Origin: a virus
Lineage: Duplodnaviria > Caudoviricetes
Virus record (IMG/VR): IMGVR_UViG_3300033446_000002
Span: 1 to 52,784 of that record
DNA length: 52,784 nucleotides
Strand: one strand, 5' to 3'
Part shown: positions 3,707-52,784 of the stretch, in pieces
Layout: each line of letters starts with the position of its first letter
How positions within the stretch are numbered: the first letter of the stretch is position 1
Notes under the pieces: model-generated
The model's database searches: none
What the model was told of the DNA's origin: nothing
What the model saw: only the letters and a program-made list of their open reading frames with translations
Program-made: the position numbers and the translations under genes

Positions 3707-6700
3707 TTATCCTACGTTAGCCGCACCAGTTAATAACAACATTATATTTAAATCATCAATTGATCGTTTTATACCATTATCTTTATCAAAATAATTACCG
3801 TTATCATAAGATGGGTTTTTACCTGATCCCATACTACTAGATTGTGTTACTGATGTTTGATTACTAGATATATTATTAATAACAGATTCAGATGTTTGAT
3901 CACTTATGGTATTTGCCATACTTTCATCTCTTGATATTTCAGGAATATTAAAATCATTTTCAGGAACTTCAATATTAGAAATAGGTTGCATAATATTTGA
4001 AATGCCTGAATATGCAGATGAAATTGTAGAATCGACCATATTACCAATATTTGAAATATCATTCATACCTGTATTTACTATAGAATCCATACTAGGTATT
4101 TTTATACTATGAATAATATCTGAGACATTTGGTAAATTAAGTTTATCTGTTAAATCTGAAATACTAGGTATATTGAATTGTTTTTTAATATCATCAAATG
4201 ATGGTAAATTTAATCCACTCGTTATTTTATCTAAAATACTCTCAGGCTTTATTTCTGTATTTTCTGTTTTGCCTATATTTTCATCGGTTTTTTCACTAGA
4301 AGATTCGTTTTGACAACAACAATTTGAACTAGATGTATTTGATGTATCTTGTTGCGTTACAATAGGTTCTGGTATTGTTGGCAATGTACCATTAATAACA
4401 GATGGTACAATAGATGGTGCAGTGGGATTATTTGGTGTTAGTTGAAAATTTTGTTGCGTTGGTTGATCAATTAATTGTTGTAAATTTGGTTGCGTCTGTA
4501 ATTGTTGTGTTTCATTTGTTGCTTGTTGAGCGTTTTGAGTTTTAGTATCTTTAGTATCTGTTGTAGGAGTCGGAATTGTTGCAACTGCTTCATTTGCAGA
4601 TGTTGTTGTAAGTGATTCAATTTTTTTTAATGCTTCAGGTGTTAAACCAACATGTAAATGCCCACCTGTAGCATGTTTTGCAGGATTTACATATTCATTT
4701 ATAAGTTGCACATCTTTTCTATCCTTACCTCTTCCTGAACCTACCGTTAAGCCTATACTCTGGTAATATTCAGTTAGTTTTCTCATTGCTTCTTTTGAGC
4801 CTTTTTTCCCAGATGCCAATGTCACATCAAATGCACGACCTTTATTATGCTCTGAACTTTTATTGGCTTTTTGATGATAAGCATCACTAAAAGCCGCTGA
4901 ACGTACAAATTCCTTACCAAGTAATTGCTTAGTAAGATACCCTAATTTATAAGTGCCATCTTGTGATTGAACGTTATCTGCATTGCTACGACCACCTTTA
5001 AATGGTATGTATTTATCACGATTTTCAATCAAATCTTTAGGAATGAAAACTTTGCCTGTTGGTGTTGTAATAGGTTGAGAAGTTTGTGGTACAGAAACAT
5101 CAGATGTTTGTTGTGTTGTATCTTGAACACTAGGCGAGCTAGGAGAGCTAGTGTAAGTAGTGCTTGAATCTGAAGCACCTGAATAATCTAAAGAACCAGA
5201 AGAACCAGCAGCAACAACGGTATTTTCCAATCCATTGAATCCGCCAATAAGCATATCTTTTATTGGATTTAAAGATTCTTGTAATTTCTTTATTGTCTCG
5301 TCAAATATTTCAGTTTGCTTTGTTACAATGCTATCCAATTTAACATTTAACAAATCCTTGTTGCTTATAATTGTACTTATAACAGCTTTTGTTTCAGGAC
5401 TATAATTTTGCAAAGAATTAACGTTAGTTAAATTGGTAGCAATAGGAACGGATTGAACTGTTTTATTTTCTTGTTCATTTTTATTTTCTGATTTAAAATC
5501 TTTAGTTTCTGTTATTGTTTGATTATTTTTATCAATTTTAACAGATACTTTTAATGCTTCTTTTGCAGATGATTCTATATTAATAACAGGGTTTATTTGA
5601 GATTGATTGCCTGTAGTTATAGGTGTTGTTGTTATAGGTGTTGTTGTTATAGATGGGGTTGTTATAGAAGATGTGGCAGATGTGGCATTTTCTTTTGCCA
5701 TTTCCTTCATTTTCTTAATTTCAGCAAGCGATTTAACCTTGCTTTTATCATATACTATTCCGTACTCATCTAATCGACTTGCAAGTATTTCAGAGATTGG
5801 CTCATTTTTAAGCATCTTTTCTTTTAATACATTAAAATATCCAATCTTCTCACTTAGTCTTATTTTATCATCTGAACTTGCGCCGACAATTGATAACCCA
5901 GCATCTATAACATTACCTGATGTTTCACTTACTTTTTCACCTACTTTTAACGCACTTGCTGCATATTCCCCTACTTTGTCACCCGCAAAATAACCAGCAG
6001 CACCACCAATAGCACCACCTACGAGAGTTCCCGCAACAGGAATAAAAGAACCTACAGAAGCTCCAATTGCAGCACCTCCTAAAGCACCTACTGTTCCAGT
6101 TGTGATTCCAACAGCTTTATCTACTTTATCTTCAGTTGTCTTCTTTTCATCGCTCATATTCTCGTACATTTCATACGCACCAAGAGCCACTGTGGCACCT
6201 GCCATCACTTTTGATAAAACAGACATATTCCCTGTAAAAGCACCACCTTTTGTTGTATTTACTTTAGCAGATTCGCCTGCTTTGGCGGACTCCCCACCTT
6301 TAGCAGATTCCCCACCTTTAGCAGATTCATTTGCTTTTGGTTTTGCTGATTCTTTTGGTGTGGGTTTTCCTTCTGTTAGTTTTGTTGGAATATCCGGTAA
6401 ATTACTTTGAGAAGAAGCATTTGCTAATATAAACTTTTTTAATTCTTTTTCTAATTTATCTTGTTCGTCTTGAGAAAATTCTTTTAAATTATATAATTCT
6501 TTTTTCAAATAAGAGAGCATTTCATCAACTTGATCGCCCATAAAATCCTTAATATGGACTTCTTGTCGATACATTAAATCATCTACTTTATTTGCTGAAC
6601 TTGTATTTTTATCATCTATTTCTTCTAACTTTTTTAATGTTTTGTTAGAAGTCGCCTCAATAGAATCTGCGGTTTTTTGAACTTCATCAATGGGTTTATC

Positions 6701-7513: not shown

Positions 7514-8272
7514 TTAAAGATACAACCTTGTGAAATTTAATTCTAATGCAGAACTATATTCACGACCGCAGGGTTCAGAAGGACATTTAATGGCAATGTT
7601 TTTCAATCCTAAGTTAATTTTTTTATATACATCATTTAGTTTAGTTGAATAAGGTTTAGCAGGCAAAGCACTTAATTTATTATATTCTTCAATAAACATA
7701 GAAACAGCATCATCTATCTGATCTATATTTGCAATATTTTGGTTTTTACAAAATGTGAGTATTGATAATTCATCATCATATTCTTCATTAAGCTCATCAC
7801 CTAATCTTGTTTTAACAGCATCTAACATTAATAAATCACGTATTCTTATATGATTAAATACCATATCATCAATAATTATATTTTTTGACTCTAGGTCATC
7901 AAATTCTATATCTTCAAGTTTAATAGTAATTGGAAAGCTGTTTCCACAAGAAGGGCATTTACTTTCTGCTTTAATTGCAAAATCTGTATCAGTTATTTTT
8001 GCCACATAAAACATTAACGCTTTGAAATCAATAGGCAACAAATCTTCTATTTTAACTTCCTTAATAACATTTGCATATATTTTCACTAATGTTTTAAAAG
8101 AAACATCCGATGATCTGTTTAATGCTCTAACTTCCCCAACAGTTAATCCTCTAAGATAAACGCTTGTTGTGTTGTATGTTTTAAACCCACTTGGCAATTC
8201 TTTAACTTCTATTAATTCGTTGTAATTTTCTTTGGTTTTTGGTGCTGATTGTTCATCTACGATTTTAAACAT
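7514..8272 (-). CDS. baseplate hub assembly protein, gp26-like
   Basis: ELPSG...LRGLTV, two CxxC-type motifs, located before tape measure. Confidence 0.65.
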   Translation of the reverse strand: MFKIVDEQSAPKTKENYNELIEVKELPSGFKTYNTTSVYLRGLTVGEVRALNRSSDVSFKTLVKIYANVIKEVKIEDLLPIDFKALMFYVAKITDTDFAIKAESKCPSCGNSFPITIKLEDIEFDDLESKNIIIDDMVFNHIRIRDLLMLDAVKTRLGDELNEEYDDELSILTFCKNQNIANIDQIDDAVSMFIEEYNKLSALPAKPYSTKLNDVYKKINLGLKNIAIKCPSEPCGREYSSALELNFTRLYL

Positions 8273-27241: not shown

Positions 27242-28037
27242 CATTATCTTTATTAGAATTCGTTACGTTCTAATTAATTTTGCCATTTATTTTATTTTTA
27301 TACTGCTACTGGTAAAGCATTATAGAGAATTGTTCTAGCTGTTAATTCAACTTCTAATTGAGTCGCCATATCAAACGCTCTTTTTACTATATTCTCCATA
27401 GATTCATGTGATGTAGTGGTGGTTAAAAACATACCGCCGTTTGTGGTTAATATGTTTTGAACTTCCGTTGTTACAAATTCGCTACATTCACGTCTTTTCG
27501 ATTCCATCAATACAAATTCAGCGCAATCACACATTTTTCGCGCCCTTGTTACATATATTTCACTAAGATAATCCATATTAGTTTCAGGTTGTATTTCACC
27601 CGCTACTGACGCACCCAATGAATATAATGTTGCTGTCATTTGTTCTAAATCTGCTGCTATTGGTTTATTTACTAGATATTTATTCGGCATTATTATTTTT
27701 CCAATAATTAGGTTGTTGTTGTTTTTGGCAAAATTACTCATGTTTTCACGATGAGATGGGACTATATCTTAAATGTTATTCACATTTTCCGCCACTTCCA
27801 TTCACTTGAATGTACAATTAGTCTCTGGACTTATACCCTTAAATTATTCCTATTTATCATTTTCATAAATCACTTTTTAAGTGGTAGGGTATTTAGCTGC
27901 TGATTATCCCAACCTATAGTCTTAATTAACGTTATTAAGAGTTACTTCACTTTTAAATTATTACTAATTTAATTAGCGTATAGTTTTTAACAGGATTTTC
28001 CAGCAATTCAACGGATTTATTCAGACCTATTCATTTA
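27242..28037 (-). mobile_element. group I intron (IA-like), 796 nt
   Basis: P AATTGCTGGAAA, Q AATCAGCAGC, R GTCCAGAGACTA (27819-27830), S AAGATATAGTCC (27758-27770), P1 with U.G wobble, terminal G. Confidence 0.93.
27298..27741 (-). CDS. intron-encoded ORF of unknown function (probable start 27690)
   Basis: lies in the P9 region; no GIY-YIG, HNH or LAGLIDADG motif seen. Confidence 0.65.
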   Translation of the reverse strand: MSNFAKNNNNLIIGKIIMPNKYLVNKPIAADLEQMTATLYSLGASVAGEIQPETNMDYLSEIYVTRARKMCDCAEFVLMESKRRECSEFVTTEVQNILTTNGGMFLTTTTSHESMENIVKRAFDMATQLEVELTARTILYNALPVAV

Positions 28038-28824
28038 AGCCTGATTCTGCTTTTAAAGAGAATACTTCTGCACGAATATTTGTCGATTCTAACGAACCAG
28101 ATATACCCAATAAATCATTATTGGCTTCCACATTGACACTGTATGATGCCACGATACTATGCACACCGGGATCGGATACAAATGCAATAGAAATAACACC
28201 TGTATCATAATTAATCGTTCCCGACATACCAGAACCCAATAATGCACCTTTACCATCATCAATAGCACGATAAGAAGTATCTGCTATTTTAAAATTCACA
28301 GTGAAGGGTCTTACAGGGACTTTTACAAGGTTAATAGTATAATCGGTTACACCTGCGACAGTAGCACCAATTGCTTCTTCTAGCACTTCATAACTGCCAT
28401 AACTACCACTATAATTAGAGCCTGTAGTTGCAGATGTTATGATTTCACCGGCTGTACGACCATAACCGGTAGTAGTTGCTTTAATTTGCTTAAAGTAAAT
28501 AATACCCGCTTCTTCTTCAATTGCTTGTGTTGATGCGATCAAAGGCAACACGGACGCACCATAACTGGCAGTAATTACATCTAAAGCCATATTAGGGATT
28601 TGCCCCAATTCTGCAAGCGTACCATTCGATTCTACGAATCGTTGATAATCTTCATATTGTTCAAGTTGTTTCCCTACTGCATATATATCACTAGGGTTTA
28701 CAGATTGACCAGACCGTGCAAGCAATGAATTTGATTCAAATGCTTCTAATTGTGGTCTATATTTTTTGTAATACAACTCAGCATCGCGTTCTACAAGTGA
28801 TTCATTTTGGCGTAACAAAGACAT
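28038..28824 (-). CDS. major capsid protein (gp23-like), exon 1; spliced product 463 aa
   Basis: STQAIEEEAGIIYF and RAEVFSLKA motifs. Confidence 0.92.
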
Positions 28825-47339: not shown

Positions 47340-47894
47340 TTAAATAGTTTGAATAATTATATTAAACCCGCTTGATATATACTTGTTTAATAAGTGCGCT
47401 ATATCATCTTTAATTTTATCATTGAAAACTTCAACTATAATTTTAGTTTTTTCTTTGTTAAAGATTTTAACATTAAAATCTCGTTTAAAACAAGACCTTA
47501 ATTCTTTAGTTATAATATTTTTTATTATTTTTGCAGATGTATTGCCGCTGTTCAAAATGGTATATCTTAATTCTAAATATAAAAATGTACTCCTTACGCC
47601 TTCTTTGTAATTAAAAGATGTTATCTTAACTGGTTTTTGCAAACAACTCGATAATATTAACTCATACCATATTACAGAATATGGAGTGCAACCTGATTTT
47701 TCAGCATATTTTAAACCACTGTCAAAATTACATATAACTCCTATATCATCAGCCTCTATTCTTAATATAGCATCATTTTCTTCTTGTTTTTCAATATCAA
47801 CATTGTTTCTGATAACGACCGATTTTAATGGGATATTTCTATTAATATTTTTTTGTAAATACATGTATGTTGCAACAATAATTGAATTACACAT
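47340..47894 (-). CDS. hypothetical protein
   Basis: 184 aa overlapping ATP-grasp stop. Confidence 0.55.
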   Translation of the reverse strand: MCNSIIVATYMYLQKNINRNIPLKSVVIRNNVDIEKQEENDAILRIEADDIGVICNFDSGLKYAEKSGCTPYSVIWYELILSSCLQKPVKITSFNYKEGVRSTFLYLELRYTILNSGNTSAKIIKNIITKELRSCFKRDFNVKIFNKEKTKIIVEVFNDKIKDDIAHLLNKYISSGFNIIIQTI

Positions 47895-49344
47895 CTAATT
47901 TATATAGATAATCTAAAGTGCTTCGAGCTATACTACGTTGATTATCCGATGTCTTTTGATTTACATCTTCTTGTTTGTATTTGAAATTTACACCATATTC
48001 TATATCGTTAAAATAACCAAGAGAATGCAGTATTGGTATTTGATACTCCAGTCTATCTCCAATGTCAGTTCTATACATCAGTGAATTTGGTATTTCTATT
48101 GATTTCACTAATTTATATACTCTATCTTGAGATTCTTGAATAGAACCTCCTATTCCAATACAACACATAATAAAACCACCTGTTGTAGCAAACTCATTTA
48201 CATATTGAATTTTACCATCAATAATTTCAGGCACTTTAGTTTGCATTGCCAAAAACAATTTAATAAATTTTCTATTTTCTTTGGTTATCCCTAGAATTGG
48301 TATTCCTACCTGTTGCTCAACAGGTATTTTATCATAGGGATAATCTGGTTGTGATAAAACCACACATGTAGCAACACTTTCATCTACCCTCAATGTGTCT
48401 TTACCTTGTGTTAAATCCAATAAAAATTGGGCGGGATCGCCTTTATGTAAAGAGCTTTGTAAAGCAAATGTAGGATAACCAAATCTAGTTGTAAACTCTA
48501 ATGGATAGGGAATGCCTTCACCATCAATAATGCAATTAACATCTATATATCCCACGTATTTTATTTTCTTTAAATAACTTTCAATTTTAAATAAAACTTC
48601 TTGAGCTAATTTTGATTTAACACCTAAAATATATCTACCAACTGTTCCTTGCTCGTATGTTGCAACACCCAAATCATCATTCATGAGTTTTTTAAACTCA
48701 AAATTTTCAAAAACATATCTTGAAAAACCTGATTTATAACTAAACCAACCGCCAACTGCCATCTCAATTCCCTTGATGAATTTTTGCAAATAAAATTGAG
48801 GTGGCAATTTACCTAGCTTGTCCCAATGATTTAACATAAACAACAAATCGTTATTATTTCTACTGACATACGTCATAGATTTATCAATTGTTTCGCCGGG
48901 AGGTTTAAAGACAAACCTTTGATCTGAGTTATCAACAATATATTGTTCACATTCATATTTAGTGTTGAATTTTTTACATGGAATAGTATTGAAAATATTA
49001 TATTGTTTAAGAATCTCAATCCCAAATTCTCTATCAGACTCTAATTTACCACCCAAAGAACCTGTGCCAATTATAGGATAATTATCCTCTATCAATTTAT
49101 CTACAAGTTCGTCTTTGTAATTATTTGTAGCAAATAAGATTAAATCTTTCCCTTCTATTTTATCTTCCCATGATGAAGACATTTCCAACAAACCGCTACC
49201 TGTCAAATTATTTCTATCTGTACTGTCAATATAATAGGTAATATCATGACCAATAGCTATACAAGACAATGCAAAATCCAATAAATTATAATTTTGAGGA
49301 TCAATAATTAATATTTTCACTTTTTCTATTCCTTTATAGATCAC
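47887..49344 (-). CDS. PurD-like ATP-grasp ligase
   Basis: KLESDREFG, LQKFIKGIE, FEFKKL, YVGYIDVN, LEFTTRFGYP, YRTDIG. Confidence 0.85.
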   Translation of the reverse strand: MIYKGIEKVKILIIDPQNYNLLDFALSCIAIGHDITYYIDSTDRNNLTGSGLLEMSSSWEDKIEGKDLILFATNNYKDELVDKLIEDNYPIIGTGSLGGKLESDREFGIEILKQYNIFNTIPCKKFNTKYECEQYIVDNSDQRFVFKPPGETIDKSMTYVSRNNNDLLFMLNHWDKLGKLPPQFYLQKFIKGIEMAVGGWFSYKSGFSRYVFENFEFKKLMNDDLGVATYEQGTVGRYILGVKSKLAQEVLFKIESYLKKIKYVGYIDVNCIIDGEGIPYPLEFTTRFGYPTFALQSSLHKGDPAQFLLDLTQGKDTLRVDESVATCVVLSQPDYPYDKIPVEQQVGIPILGITKENRKFIKLFLAMQTKVPEIIDGKIQYVNEFATTGGFIMCCIGIGGSIQESQDRVYKLVKSIEIPNSLMYRTDIGDRLEYQIPILHSLGYFNDIEYGVNFKYKQEDVNQKTSDNQRSIARSTLDYLYKLDV

Positions 49345-49987
49345 GCGACATATAATCGTTATATATCTTTTCTAAATTTTCAATCATTCTACTATAATAC
49401 CATTTATAATAAAAATGCCATTGAAAATAATCAAACCATCCATTAAATATTTCTTCCATGCCCGAAATAGAATATGCGTTTATTTCATGTAAAAATATAG
49501 ATTCATGCTTCCCGCTAGCGGAAAGTAATTTATTAATCTTTTCTATATCATACTTACAGATTTCTCTATTAACCTCATCTCTATATTTATCGTAATTATA
49601 ATACATTGAATGCGCTATACCATGAGGAACAGTATCTTGTCTTTTTATTATATAAGCTATAATATATTCTACTTCAGTCATAGACCTTAAAAGCTCAACC
49701 AACATCTTCTCGCGATCATTTAAATTGTTACACTTTTCAGCAAAATAAAATACAATAGATTTAGGAATATTCAATCCATTCCAGTATCCAATATAATTTA
49801 TATTGTATTTGTTTTTATACAAATCTATTATTTGCTCTAAATTATCAACAATAACACCTTTAAAATCTTTAGATTTGTAATATTCTCTAATTCTAGCAAA
49901 AGCCTTCAGCATTTCTACATTATCTTTACAAAAGATAACAAGCGTTTTGCCATTGTGCAACGTGTATTTTTGTAGTCCACAATCCAT
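49334..49987 (-). CDS. zincin-like protein with altered HExxH (HGIAH...HEINAY)
   Basis: 217 aa; GLNIP, YIIAY, HGIAHSMY. Confidence 0.45.
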   Translation of the reverse strand: MDCGLQKYTLHNGKTLVIFCKDNVEMLKAFARIREYYKSKDFKGVIVDNLEQIIDLYKNKYNINYIGYWNGLNIPKSIVFYFAEKCNNLNDREKMLVELLRSMTEVEYIIAYIIKRQDTVPHGIAHSMYYNYDKYRDEVNREICKYDIEKINKLLSASGKHESIFLHEINAYSISGMEEIFNGWFDYFQWHFYYKWYYSRMIENLEKIYNDYMSRDL

Positions 49988-50568
49988 TAAAATTTCCTAG
50001 TTTTCTTCATTTTTATACAAGAACATCCGTCGTGATAATAATCTTTAACAATTTTGTATGATACAAAACCAACTTTTTCATAAAAGTCACGTAAATATTT
50101 TTTATCTTGACGCACTTCCAATGTCATAGTATTCACACCCATAAAAAGAAAAAGTTTCTCAGCGTTAATCATAAGTAATTTTGCAATGCCATTACTTCTA
50201 AATGAAGGGTGAACTGCTATTGATTCTATATTCATTTTATTAGAAGTTGATTTAAATGCCAATTGAATATAGCCAGCTAGTTTATTACTAATATGAATTA
50301 GTAATATAATTGCATTTGCATGATTTATTATATGGTAAATTTTTGATTTTGTAAGTAAAAAATCACCATATAACAAAGGATCGTAACAAATTCCTTCTAA
50401 TAACAAAAGCTCATCAGTATATTTTTTTTCAACCAAGCAGATACGTTGATCTATTCCTTTTTTCCATAATAAACTATTTGTTATTAATATTGGTTTTGTT
50501 TCTTTAATTTTTATTACTTTAATCATTGTATTTTCATTCTTGAAAATTAATAATGAATAACAATTCAA
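49987..50568 (-). CDS. GNAT (RimI-like) acetyltransferase
   Basis: SIAVHPSFRSNGIA, LEVR, FYEKVGF, DYY. Confidence 0.88.
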   Translation of the reverse strand: MNCYSLLIFKNENTMIKVIKIKETKPILITNSLLWKKGIDQRICLVEKKYTDELLLLEGICYDPLLYGDFLLTKSKIYHIINHANAIILLIHISNKLAGYIQLAFKSTSNKMNIESIAVHPSFRSNGIAKLLMINAEKLFLFMGVNTMTLEVRQDKKYLRDFYEKVGFVSYKIVKDYYHDGCSCIKMKKTRKF

Positions 50569-50582
50569 CTATTGTTTATAGT

Positions 50583-52573
50583 TTAAAAAACTACATTATA
50601 CATGCTTTTTTTATCAAAGTCAACTTTAATTAAAGAATCTGAATAAGGAAAATTTTGAGCATGGGATATAATAAAGACATGATTAGCATCAATTAATTTT
50701 ATTGATTGCAGCACTTGCTCTGTATCTGAATCTCCTAAAAATTTAAATGTTTCATCAAATGACAATACTCCAATTTTACCTAGAATTCCATATAACTTCT
50801 CTAATATTGAAATATCTATAATTGTTTGTTGTCCGCCGCTACACATATCATATTTTATCCATTCATCATTTACTTTAAAATCAATATCAAAATCAGGTCT
50901 TACATCACCATTTGTTAATTTTTTGATAGATCGAACATTAATTTGATTATTTGAAAATATTTGAGATAACTCATTTAAAATTGACAGTAGAATTTCACCT
51001 TTTGGAGAAAACAATTCTAAATATTTCAATAAATCCACTAAATTAGACTCTTTTATTGCAAGAGAATGCTGTGTTTCCTTTAGAGTTGCCTCATCTTTTT
51101 CTATTTTTTCAAGTGAAACCTGATACTTGTTTTTTAATATAAGCAACTGATTAAAACCTGCATTTTCTTCTTTCAATCTCATTACCTCTTGTGAGGCGTT
51201 TATCGGCTGAACATTATGCTCTTCACAAACAGCAAGGATTTTGTGTTGTAAAGCCTCTATTTGATTTTCAGATGTAGTTATAATATCTTTTGCAACAACT
51301 AACTTTCTTTGGTTGTTTTGTTGCTTTATAAAATTATCTTCTTCTGCAAGAATCAACGAAATCTTATTGTCAATTTCAGATATAAGTGATTTAATTTTGT
51401 AATTTTTTAATTCAACACTTTCTATATCAATACTTTCTACGGCTTTTTTACCTTTTTCCAATCTGTTTTCGTTTTCTGAAATACTCAAATCTGTTTTTTG
51501 TTTTAGAGATTCTATTTCTTCTGCATTTAACGAATGTCCGCAAGCATGACATTTTGATTCTTTTAAGACATCTCTTTGCTTTTTTAAACTATCAATATTT
51601 AAATGAATTTTATTGATTTCATTTTTATATTTTTCTAATAATTTTTGTCTGCGTATTAATTCAGAGGTCGATTCTTCAAGCAAAGACAATAAGTTATTTT
51701 TTTCTAATAGTAACGGTGTTTTATCCGTTGATTTTGATAATAATTGTGGTAAATCTGATAATGATTCAACAACTTTGCGGTTAATTTGTTGTTGTTTAGA
51801 ATATGATTCTGTTTTTTCGTTTAATTCTATTATCAAAGAATAGATAGAAATTAATCTCAAATTATCTGAGATTAACGATTGATAATCAACATTACTATTC
51901 CAATGCGCTATCTGTTCCTTTCTTGCATTTATTGTCGCTATTTTACTGTTTATTTCATTTGAAATTAAACCAATCTCATTTTTTAATTTAGCAACATCAT
52001 CAACAACTAATCCGTACATCTTGTCTAATATATCTAAGTTTAGAATGTCAGATATTAAAGAAACACGTTCTGAATAAGAATAGCTACTTAAAAAACCTTC
52101 TCTACGCTGATTAAAGAAAAAAACATTAAATAATTTCAAAAATCTCAAATTATTTGAAATGTGACTTTTTATACTTGATTGGTTTTCAGATTCTATGAGT
52201 TTATTATTAATCTTGTATATTAAATAACCACTGTTTTTAGCGTAACCTCGCTCAATATAATGTGTATGTCCTTGATATACAATTTCAACAGAAACACTCA
52301 TTGACTTTGAGTTTAATTTAACTAAATCTTTTAGATTAATAGAATCTTTTGCATCTAAAAAAACATATCTAATAGCATTGACCAATGTGGACTTTCCACT
52401 GCCAACATCTCCCTGTATCAAAGTAATGCCTTCTTTGGGAGCGAATCTTAAATATTCAACAGAACGAAAGTTTTTTAATTCTACATAATTAATAGTAAAA
52501 TTACAATCAATATGTGATTCAACTCCATCTTTTATTTTATTAAAATAATGTGAATGAAGATGTGACATATCAA
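50583..52573 (-). CDS. Rad50/SbcC (gp46-like) ATPase; probably the 3' exon downstream of a group II intron
   Basis: LKNFRS, GDVGSGKS, CHAC hook, CSGGQ, FDE, ISH. Confidence 0.9.
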
Positions 52574-52784
52574 GTTGAGTCAACGCCTACTATTATATAG
52601 GACGCTTCTCGATTAAATCCGTGCATGAGACTTTCACCTCACACGGCTCCCGAATTTGTTAGGTTTATCAGACCTTTGCTATACGTGGAGTGGATTTCTA
52701 TGTGACATGAGCGATGTATTGCTATTAAGTTTTTAGGCTTGTTGTCACTGTGATTTCCATTTATATGGTGTAATTCAACTGGTT
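52574..52784 (-). mobile_element. 3' end of group II intron (domains V-VI)
   Basis: GAGCCGTGTGAGGTGAAAGTCTCATGCACGG (DV), DVI hairpin, ends ...GACTCAAC. Confidence 0.88.
52639..52782 (-). CDS. C-terminal HNH domain of intron-encoded protein (partial)
   Basis: VELHHINGNHSDNKPKNLIAIHRSCHIEIH; stop inside DV. Confidence 0.85.
   Translation of the reverse strand, partial: PVELHHINGNHSDNKPKNLIAIHRSCHIEIHSTYSKGLINLTNSGAV

What the first reader, a model, noticed from the sequence alone, without database searches (positions are those of the whole stretch)
52574..52784. Group II intron in a lytic-type phage, upstream of or within the Rad50-like gene
Domain V with CGT/CCG-type start and GAAA loop, domain VI and terminal AC are present, preceded by an HNH IEP tail. 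The ORF track's TTG start (52583) lies inside the intron, so the true gene probably has a 5' exon outside the window. The ~25 aa before the ATPase beta-strand hint at an Mre11-Rad50 fusion (inference). Group II introns are rarely reported in phages, and this genome has both intron classes.
Basis: partly seen in the sequence, partly recalled or inferred. Interest (0 to 1): 0.75.

Follow-up and report, generated by a model that had tools for sequence, protein, structure and literature searches.

The report
Mobile intron splitting phage repair gene
The end of this phage contig holds the tail of a self-splicing, mobile group II intron that interrupts a single fused Mre11-Rad50 DNA-repair gene, a kind of phage intron first catalogued in 2025.

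Summary
Rfam RF00029 matches window 52651-52574 (-) at 50.4 bits (cut-off 40), just after an HNH-type ORF tail. The contig stops inside the intron. A related viral contig, L002, has 94% Rad50 identity and an identical intron end, and it carries the whole element. That element starts with GUGCG, encodes a 516-aa RT(YADD)-maturase-HNH protein, and has domains V and VI. EBS1/IBS1 and EBS2/IBS2 covary across cyanobacterial relatives.

The real 3' splice site is probably one base past the Rfam end (window 52573). In the closest relative, L009, an intronless paralog fixes that boundary. The candidate gamma base is A, which pairs with U and not C. Splicing there gives one 955-aa ORF that aligns end to end with fused Mre11-Rad50 proteins. 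Such long proteins are 141 of the 150 best homologs.

Phage group II introns were described in 2025 (PMC12350094), so this is a new member of a known kind. Splicing itself was not observed.

The parts
52573..52784 (-). Last 212 nt of a roughly 2130-nt group IIB-type intron; the rest lies beyond the contig end
   Evidence: Rfam RF00029 hit 52651-52574. Window 52574-52784 is 211 of 211 identical to L001 and L002. The end is moved to 52573 on the evidence.
52642..52782 (-). C-terminal 47 aa of the intron-encoded protein (HNH/En domain), with stop codon at 52639-52641 inside domain V
   Evidence: ORF list; identical to the end of the 516-aa ORF in L001 and L002; weak HNH family matches.
52616..52649 (-). 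Domain V (34 nt, AGC triad, GAAA tetraloop, G-A mismatch opposite the triad G)
   Evidence: Rfam alignment. The same G-A feature is present in Moorena relatives L005, L011 and L022.
52577..52610 (-). Domain VI with bulged branch-point A at 52580, 8 nt from the proposed 3' end
   Evidence: Rfam alignment; MFE fold of the identical L002:7918-7996.
50583..52572 (-). 3' exon: last base of the His codon, then 662 codons of linker plus the Rad50/SbcC ATPase (Walker A GSGKST, CHAC zinc hook, SGGQQ signature), then the stop
   Evidence: ORF; Pfam AAA_23, AAA_29 and SMC_N, and PHROG 77 positions 277-944 of 967; alignment to fused homologs.
52566..52568 (-). ATG formerly taken as the Rad50 start; most likely an internal Met
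   Evidence: In alignment A5 it falls in a column that is Leu in 13 of 13 fused homologs.

Best explanation
Window 52573-52784 (minus strand) is the 3' end of a mobile group II intron of the cyanobacterial IIB type. The intron encodes a reverse transcriptase-maturase-HNH protein. It interrupts a single fused mre11-rad50 (sbcD-sbcC-like) gene of an uncultured, roughly 29% G+C myovirus, within the linker between the nuclease and ATPase modules, after the second base of a His codon. The proposed mechanism is as follows. The gene is transcribed with the intron, and the intron-encoded protein is translated from domain IV. That protein helps the ribozyme splice by branching at the bulged A of domain VI. 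The exons are then ligated as ...GAT AAA CA|T GAT ATG... (AAT in L002), giving a fusion protein of about 955 aa. The freed lariat-protein particle can reverse-splice into intronless alleles. It would recognise them through EBS1 UGUUUA/IBS1 UAAACA, EBS2 CUAUA/IBS2 UAUAG and EBS3 A/IBS3 U, and the HNH domain would nick the other strand to prime cDNA synthesis.

Shown here: the intron anatomy, the covarying exon-binding pairs, the boundary in the closest relative, the in-frame collinear ORF, and near-identical copies in diverged alleles and in other contexts. Inferred: actual splicing, activity of the encoded protein, and retrohoming.
For: Anatomy:
- RF00029 scores 50.4 bits in the window and the same in L001 and L002.
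- L002 carries the whole element between an Mre11-like exon and the Rad50 exon.
- The encoded protein has RVT_N, RVT_1 and GIIM. Its best solved relative is 6me0_C, E 5.8e-69.

5' end:
- In an alignment of 8 introns, similarity begins exactly at an invariant GTGCG.
- A perfect 6-of-6 Watson-Crick EBS1/IBS1 match occurs in 6 of 11 own pairs against 5 of 110 mismatched pairs.
- A perfect 5-of-5 EBS2/IBS2 match occurs in 7 of 8 own pairs against 0 of 56 mismatched pairs.

3' end:
- The base R in GGGUA[R]GAUG pairs with the last intron base in 12 of 12 relatives where the motif could be read (4 A-U, 8 G-C). The phage has A, which pairs with U at +1 and not with the C at the Rfam end.
- L009 has the same GACUCAAC tail. 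Its intronless paralog matches exon 1 at 41 of 42 bases up to the G before GTGCG. It matches exon 2 at 24 of 33 bases only when exon 2 starts one base after the Rfam end (14 of 33 otherwise). The protein then reads RFYDA in both copies.

Coding:
- With the +1 site, L002 gives one ORF of 955 aa. With the Rfam end there is a stop at codon 294.
- That ORF aligns in a single full-length HSP with 10 of 11 fused homologs, for example P0013 (955 aa), 1-954 to 1-954.
- 141 of the 150 best homologs are 811-1227 aa long.
- 12 of the 13 aligned homologs carry Metallophos and 13 of 13 carry SMC_N.
- In A5, K-H-N/D-M fills the homologs' columns without a gap.

Mobility:
- The intron end is 211 of 211 identical between window and L002, while the adjoining Rad50 DNA is 90.2% identical (1796 of 1991).
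- Intron G+C is 37.8% against 28-29% in the flanks.
- Other flanks abut the same intron ends in four metagenome runs.
- A 93% identical copy lies in an unrelated contig, L004.
Against: - No RNA evidence of splicing was obtained. No RNA run was laid, and the four DNA runs that were laid showed no contig skipping the intron.
- No intronless allele of this phage gene was found.
- The proposed 3' end (...AACU) breaks the usual AY rule, and Rfam's model ends one base earlier.
- With the Rfam end, the sequence reads as a tidy stop-start junction (CAT TGA T ATG in the window, TAA in L002). That is what separate genes would look like.
- At two other insertion contexts, the base after the shared T is A. 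That would mispair with the candidate EBS3 A under the +1 reading.
- The candidate EBS3 column pairs in only 5 of 6 calibrating relatives.
- The gamma covariation rests on few independent changes.
- The 5' exon of the window's own allele is not in hand, so everything upstream is read from L002, whose exon DNA is about 90% identical.
- TIGR04416 scores 286 bits, just under its 300-bit cut-off.
- Rfam's D1-D4 models gave no hit at E up to 1.
Confidence: 0.85

Rival explanations
1. The intron ends where Rfam ends (window 52574, ...CAAC). It sits 4 nt before the stop codon of a separate mre11 gene and 5 nt before the ATG of a separate rad50 gene. Splicing would only restore a stop-start junction suited to translational coupling.
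For: - Rfam model end and the AY rule.
- In-frame TGA (window) or TAA (L002) followed by one base and ATG.
- All four insertion contexts have T at this position, as expected if it is IBS3 pairing with an EBS3 A.
Against: - L009, the closest relative with the same tail, demonstrably splices one base further on.
- The candidate gamma would mispair (A with C), which is seen in 0 of 12 relatives.
- 141 of the 150 best homologs have fused lengths.
- The ATG aligns with a Leu that is invariant in 13 of 13 homologs. The codon before it (AAT/GAT, N/D) falls in a column that is G, E, N, K or D in the homologs. A preceding intron U therefore makes an apparent TAA or TGA by chance.
Confidence: 0.08
2. 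The intron no longer splices, or splices poorly. The gene is in effect fractured: an Mre11 with a 7-residue intron-encoded tail (...DKQCDLLVA in L002) and a Rad50 started at ATG 52568 are made as two chains.
For: - The upstream frame closes 22 nt into the intron.
- There is a Met codon 5 nt after the intron where homologs have Leu.
- Phage Mre11-Rad50/SbcD genes fractured by selfish elements are on record (Dassa et al. 2009, PMC2677866, passages read; earlier scan notes).
Against: - The 516-aa ORF is intact, with YADD, maturase and HNH.
- The EBS1 and EBS2 complements to the exon are intact.
- Domains V and VI score above the Rfam cut-off.
- Copies are identical in alleles whose exons differ by 10%.
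- I saw no Shine-Dalgarno-like GGAG before ATG 52568 when reading, although one repeat family in the phage shows GGAG before an ATG.
Confidence: 0.05
3. The intron at the contig end is an assembly artefact: a repeat from another organism was joined to the phage contig.
For: - Three assemblies break inside the intron: the window, L001 and L004.
- The intron shows 2-3 times the summed contig depth of the exons.
- The 5' part of L001's intron carries different EBS loops.
Against: - L002 spans exon-intron-exon inside a 24-kb viral contig.
- In independent runs, exon unitigs run 29-30 nt into each intron end. In X8 and X10 this holds at both ends (pieces ending at 5895 and starting at 7967); in X9 the listed pieces show it at the 3' end only.
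Confidence: 0.02

Closest known systems
[quoted passage not shown]
   Same: A group II intron inside a conserved Caudoviricetes gene, found with Rfam RF00029, with an RT-maturase-endonuclease ORF. The boundaries are supported by EBS/IBS pairing, as in their curation. They report 20 curated cases and hits in 9,229 IMG/VR contigs.
   Different: The words Mre11, Rad50, SbcC, SbcD, cyanophage and cyanobacteria do not occur in their main text. In this case the 3' end lies one base beyond the RF00029 match and is not AY.
Group IIB introns of filamentous cyanobacteria, with the Scytonematopsis copy L009 the closest in RNA
   Same: The encoded proteins are 43-59% identical in 18 cyanobacterial loci. 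They share GUGCG, the EBS1, EBS2 and candidate EBS3 positions, the GGGUA[R]GAUG motif, and domains V and VI. L009 shares the GACUCAAC+Y tail, the GUAAUUG loop and the GUGCGAUU start. The best solved relative of the protein is 6me0_C. From memory, not from a call, I take that to be the Thermosynechococcus T.el4h IIB intron protein.
   Different: The host is a 29% G+C phage rather than a cyanobacterial chromosome, and the target is a phage repair gene. Assignment to a named Zimmerly class (CL1, CL2 and so on) was not tested.
Fused Mre11-Rad50 (SbcD-SbcC) proteins of phages, PHROG 77
   Same: The spliced ORF (955 aa) is collinear with proteins of 920-1004 aa that carry Metallophos plus SMC_N/AAA_23. 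PHROG 77 matches from profile position 277 onward.
   Different: The best identity is only about 35% (P0008). In this phage the gene is interrupted in the interdomain linker.
Fractured SbcD-like gene split by a free-standing endonuclease (Dassa et al. 2009, PMC2677866; passages read)
   Same: The same gene family is invaded by a selfish mobile element in phage-like metagenomic DNA.
   Different: That split lies inside the nuclease domain, has no intron or intein, and yields two polypeptides. Here a self-splicing intron lies in the linker and should restore a single chain.

Membership tests
Group II intron (ribozyme) | Domain V (34-nt hairpin, AGC triad, GNRA loop, 2-nt bulge) followed by domain VI with a bulged A | tested here: met
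   RF00029 at 50.4 bits against a gathering score of 40; fold with bulged GA. The G-A mismatch opposite the triad G is shared with three Moorena relatives.
Group II intron (ribozyme) | 5' end GUGYG | tested here: met
   Not in the window. GUGCG is at L002:5867, invariant in 8 of 8 aligned relatives, and similarity starts exactly there.
Group II intron (ribozyme) | 3' end AY | tested here: not met
   The Rfam end is AC, but the end supported by the L009 paralog and the gamma pairing is ...AACU (...AACC in L009). This is a departure in the tail only; the other features are met.
Group II intron (ribozyme) | EBS1/IBS1 and EBS2/IBS2 pairing with the 5' exon | tested here: met
   L002 has UGUUUA/UAAACA (6 of 6) and CUAUA/UAUAG (5 of 5). 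Perfect matches occur in 6 of 11 own pairs against 5 of 110 cross pairs for EBS1, and in 7 of 8 own pairs against 0 of 56 cross pairs for EBS2.
Group II intron, subgroup IIB | EBS3/IBS3 single pair and gamma-gamma' pair | tested here: inconclusive
   The candidate EBS3 column (GGCAAA[N]UGG) pairs in 5 of 6 relatives. The candidate gamma pairs in 12 of 12 relatives, and in the phage only with the +1 end. Both columns were found by covariation and not from a reference structure. Rfam D1-D4 models gave no hit.
Group II intron-encoded protein | RT domain with YADD, maturase (X) domain and, in mobile En+ lineages, a C-terminal HNH | tested here: met
   RVT_N 100.5 bits, RVT_1 134.7 bits and GIIM 37.6 bits. 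YADD and CxxC...HH...N...CH..H are visible in the sequence. HNH matches are weak. TIGR04416 scores 286.2 bits, just below its 300-bit cut-off.
Group II intron (function) | Splicing that yields ligated exons and a lariat | not testable with these tools
   No RNA run holding the locus was laid. Reads were laid on DNA runs.
Fused Mre11-Rad50 (SbcDC-like) protein | N-terminal metallophosphatase and C-terminal ABC/SMC ATPase with zinc hook in one reading frame | tested here: met
   Met for L002 after in-silico splicing at the +1 site: 955 aa with no stop, and full-length HSPs with 10 of 11 fused homologs. Metallophos is in exon 1; AAA_23 and SMC_N are in exon 2. For the window only exon 2 is available.

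The most novel reading that the evidence does not exclude
The intron may act as a splicing-dependent switch between two forms of the repair machine. Spliced RNA would give the single-chain Mre11-Rad50 fusion. Unspliced RNA would give a stand-alone Mre11 with a 7-residue intron-encoded tail and, from the Met codon 5 nt after the intron, a stand-alone Rad50. That Met replaces a Leu that is invariant in 13 of 13 homologs. The Leu-to-Met change would then be an adaptation of the host gene to its intron. In addition, this intron lineage uses a non-AY 3' end that RF00029 places one base short, so automatic annotation may be splitting fused genes into apparent stop-start pairs more widely.
Probability: 0.12. 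Interest if true: 0.7.

Novelty: new member of a known kind. Interest (0 to 1): 0.45.

Why it matters
This is a fully dissected example of a group II intron in a virulent-looking tailed phage, with single-base boundaries.

- The intron sits in a gene family that is central to phage recombination (from memory, the T4 gene 46/47 analogue).
- It shows that the Rfam D5/D6 hit can end one base short. That single base decides whether a reader, or an annotation pipeline, sees two coupled genes or one fused gene. The 94%-identical protein in the public collection (P0001) is 661 aa, the length of the Rad50 part read alone from the ATG.
- The identical intron end in alleles that differ by 10%, the extra insertion contexts and the cyanobacterial relatives suggest ongoing intron traffic between phages and cyanobacteria. 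The runs that hold most of the locus are labelled microbial-mat metagenomes.

It does not change the general picture, because phage group II introns were catalogued in 2025.

Tried and rejected
- Circular continuation: the start of the window does not continue the intron ORF, and no terminal repeat was found.
- blastn of window 52500-52784 against the phage collection found no match.
- tblastn of Rad50 against the phage collection found 23 records, all below 60% identity.
- Search for an intronless allele of this phage:
  - IMG/VR with Rad50 returned 2 loci, both with the intron.
  - IMG/VR with Mre11 returned only the L002 contig again.
  - The metagenome contigs scan with the Rad50 alignment gave 594 pattern hits, none a relative.
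  - The search for homologous proteins with Mre11 returned nothing; my reference included the stop codon, which may have spoiled that query.
  - The same tool with Rad50 returned 7 proteins, one close (94%, 661 aa) and the rest at 24-31% identity.
- Exact-word scans with the intron's 5' end and its D5-D6 stretch found only L002, L001 and the L004 contig.
- Read laying on four DNA runs:
  - No contig skips the intron. The tool warns that a hole proves nothing.
  - Intron bins have 2-3 times the summed depth of exon bins. The tool says this is not a copy number.
- The MFE fold of the 519-nt 5' part (z -2.5) and RNAalifold on the DII-DIV region gave no usable domain map.
- Rfam D1-D4 models gave no hit at E up to 1.
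- My first reading was separate genes with the intron 4 nt before the mre11 stop. I held it through and abandoned it.
- The 'IR' residues shared by two loose-end contexts under the Rfam end are too short to weigh. The shared upstream bases there look like IBS motifs, not homology.
- ORF continuity across the junction was uninformative for L011, L013 and L016.
- A DNA search for an intronless L009 exon in 60 related genomes found none. The protein search found the paralog in the same genome.
- Six relatives (L012, L014, L015, L017, L019, L021) had no readable gamma motif and were left out of the 12-of-12 count.
- Three loci (L010, L013, L016) lacked the AAAGU motif and were left out of the EBS2 count.
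- Supplementary tables of PMC12350094 were closed, so I cannot say whether these contigs are already listed there.
- Literature searches for group II intron with phage, Rad50 and Mre11 (5 papers hold the terms, 4 were listed, none relevant by title or abstract) and with cyanophage (15 papers, 10 listed, none reporting such an intron by title or abstract) are.

Full report
**What is in the window.** Rfam's group II intron model RF00029 (domains V and VI) matches window 52651-52574 on the minus strand at 50.4 bits (gathering score 40, E 5.2e-07). Rfam also finds a group I intron at 28047-27737 (55.6 bits, cut-off 50). Just upstream on the same strand, an ORF open at the contig end (52639-52782) ends with a CxxC...HH...N...CH..H pattern and gives weak HNH matches. 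Downstream lies a 666-aa ORF with AAA_23, AAA_29 and SMC_N hits. It also matches PHROG 77 (SbcC-like), and that match starts only at profile position 277 of 967. The genome record is this contig alone, so the sequence stops inside the intron. The start of the contig does not continue it. Tail sheath, tape measure, head protease, DNA polymerase and helicase hits show a myovirus. G+C is 29.5%.

**The whole element, seen in relatives.** Two IMG/VR loci encode a Rad50 that is 94% identical, and both give the same RF00029 score. L002 spans the complete region:
- a metallophosphatase (Mre11/SbcD-like) ORF;
- GTGCG at L002:5867;
- about 520 nt of structured RNA;
- a 516-aa ORF with RVT_N, RVT_1 (YADD), the GIIM maturase domain and the HNH tail;
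- domains V and VI;
- the Rad50 ORF.

The best solved relative of the encoded protein is 6me0_C (E 5.8e-69). The last 211 nt of the intron are identical in the window, L001 and L002. The next 34 exon bases already differ at 6 positions. Overall the Rad50 DNA of the window and L002 is 90.2% identical (1796 of 1991). Intron G+C is 37.8%, against 28-29% in the flanks.

**Relatives and the 5' splice site.** A scan of one genome per species found 19 loci encoding relatives of the protein. Eighteen have cyanobacterial titles (43-59% identity). One is a 6.7-kb contig binned as Chloroflexota, at 92% protein identity. That contig has a different 3' exon and three tRNA genes. In an alignment of eight introns, similarity starts exactly at an invariant GTGCG, and the upstream sequences are unrelated. 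The last six exon bases have a perfect Watson-Crick complement in the homologous hairpin loop in 6 of 11 introns, against 5 of 110 mismatched intron-exon pairs. A second 5-nt pairing just after a conserved AAAGUNNC motif is perfect in 7 of 8 introns, against 0 of 56 mismatched pairs. For L002 these pairings are UGUUUA/UAAACA and CUAUA/UAUAG. The 5' exon therefore ends ...GAT AAA CA.

**The 3' splice site decides the biology.**
- *Two readings.* If the intron ends where Rfam ends (...CAAC), the junction reads CAT TAA T ATG (TGA in the window). That would be a stop for mre11 and a start for rad50. I held this reading through.
- *Pairing evidence.* A base in a conserved GGGUA[R]GAUG motif pairs with the last intron base in all 12 relatives where the motif could be read (four A-U, eight G-C). 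Six loci with no readable motif were left out. The phage has A there, which fits the U one base beyond the Rfam end and not the C at that end.
- *Calibration of the Rfam end.* It is correct for five relatives with a 9-nt tail, because long ORFs join there.
- *The closest relative.* L009 is closest in RNA and has the same GACUCAAC tail. Its candidate EBS3 base fits the +2 exon base rather than +1. More decisively, an intronless paralog in the same genome matches exon 1 at 41 of 42 bases up to the base before GTGCG. It matches exon 2 at 24 of 33 bases only if exon 2 starts one base after the Rfam end (14 of 33 otherwise). Both proteins then read ...LRFYDA.... This tail type therefore ends one base later, in ...AACY, which is not AY.

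**The gene is a fusion.**
- A search of 1.84 billion representative proteins with the window's Rad50 gave 407 hits. Of the 150 listed, 141 are 811-1227 aa long. Where the best-matching stretch begins near our N-terminus, it begins at about residue 215-350 of the target, and often from our residue 2-5.
- Of thirteen that I aligned, 12 carry Metallophos and 13 carry SMC_N.
- In that alignment, the Mre11 exon of L002 ends at ...YIDK. The homologs then have two residues and an invariant Leu (13 of 13). Our 'start' Met falls on that Leu.
- Splicing at +1 supplies exactly His and Asn/Asp before the Met, so the fit has no gap.
- The column of the Asn/Asp residue is G, E, N, K or D in the homologs. 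AAT or GAT after an intron-final U therefore mimics TAA or TGA by chance.
- In silico, the +1 junction gives one 955-aa ORF in L002. The Rfam end gives a stop at codon 294. The 955-aa product aligns in a single full-length HSP with 10 of 11 fused homologs.

I put the fusion reading at about 85%.

**Mobility.** Runs holding most of the L002 region are labelled microbial-mat metagenomes. Four DNA runs were laid on L002:4900-9000:
- Exon unitigs run 29-30 nt into each end of the intron.
- Loose ends with other flanks abut the same intron ends. They share AAACA upstream and T downstream.
- Intron bins have 2-3 times the summed depth of exon bins, which the tool says is not a copy number.
- No contig skips the intron.

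The 5' part of L001's intron differs from L002 at the EBS1 and EBS2 loops, although its exon is 99.9% identical. That could be a retargeted sibling copy or a chimeric assembly. Together with the identity contrast, this suggests a recently active intron family. Retrohoming itself is inferred.

**What is known.** Merk, Jones and Eddy (NAR 2025, PMC12350094; abstract and results section read) report 20 curated phage group II introns and hits in 9,229 IMG/VR contigs. Dassa et al. 2009 (PMC2677866; passages read) describe an SbcD-like gene fractured by a free-standing endonuclease. Earlier notes of this scan report similar splits of fused phage Mre11-Rad50 genes in other genomes; I did not check those notes themselves. 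Two literature searches found no report of a group II intron in a phage mre11-rad50 gene.

**Verdict.** This is a new member of a known kind. It has two useful particulars: a non-AY 3' end that the Rfam hit places one base short, and a position in the linker of a fused repair gene.

Noticed in passing
window 27737-28047 (-): Rfam group I intron hit (RF00028, 55.6 bits, cut-off 50), next to the ORF at 28027-28824. I confirmed only the Rfam hit.
   Followed up: partly
L001:1-300 compared with L002:6110-6270: The intron copy in L001 has different EBS1 (UAAUCA in place of UGUUUA) and EBS2 (CAUCA in place of CUAUA) loops, yet its 3' exon is 99.9% identical to L002. It is either a sibling intron retargeted to another site and joined in by the assembler, or a mismatch with its own exon.
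   Followed up: partly
L004 (same contig as L025) 1-1734: A 93% identical intron copy (protein 92%) ends in an unrelated, higher-G+C 6.7-kb contig binned as a Chloroflexota MAG. It is followed by a non-homologous exon and three tRNA genes. That contig also starts inside the intron.
   Followed up: partly
L002:5862 and 7996-7997 (loose ends in runs X8-X11): At least two further insertion contexts for near-identical intron copies. Their upstream flanks end ...UAUAGAAACA or ...UACAGAAACA, and they have T as the first downstream base. Only 30-base consensus flanks were available, so the host genes are unknown.
   Followed up: no
L009:4616; possibly also L008, L016 and L020: The RF00029 match ends one base short of the true 3' splice site in the GACUCAAC-type tail, as shown by an intronless paralog at L028. 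L008, L016 and L020 have similar short tails followed by C and may behave the same way; this was not tested.
   Followed up: partly
L014 and L021: Two GTGCG..T.GTT motifs lie about 200 nt apart, and the distances to the D5/D6 hit are unusually long. These may be nested or tandem introns in a Chamaesiphon MAG.
   Followed up: no
window 47887-50568 (-): Downstream of the repair gene lie a GNAT acetyltransferase (Acetyltransf_10, E 1.4e-15), an ORF with no family hit, and an ATP-grasp protein resembling phosphoribosylglycinamide synthetase (GARS_C, E 3.5e-10). L002 lacks the GNAT ORF at this position.
   Followed up: no
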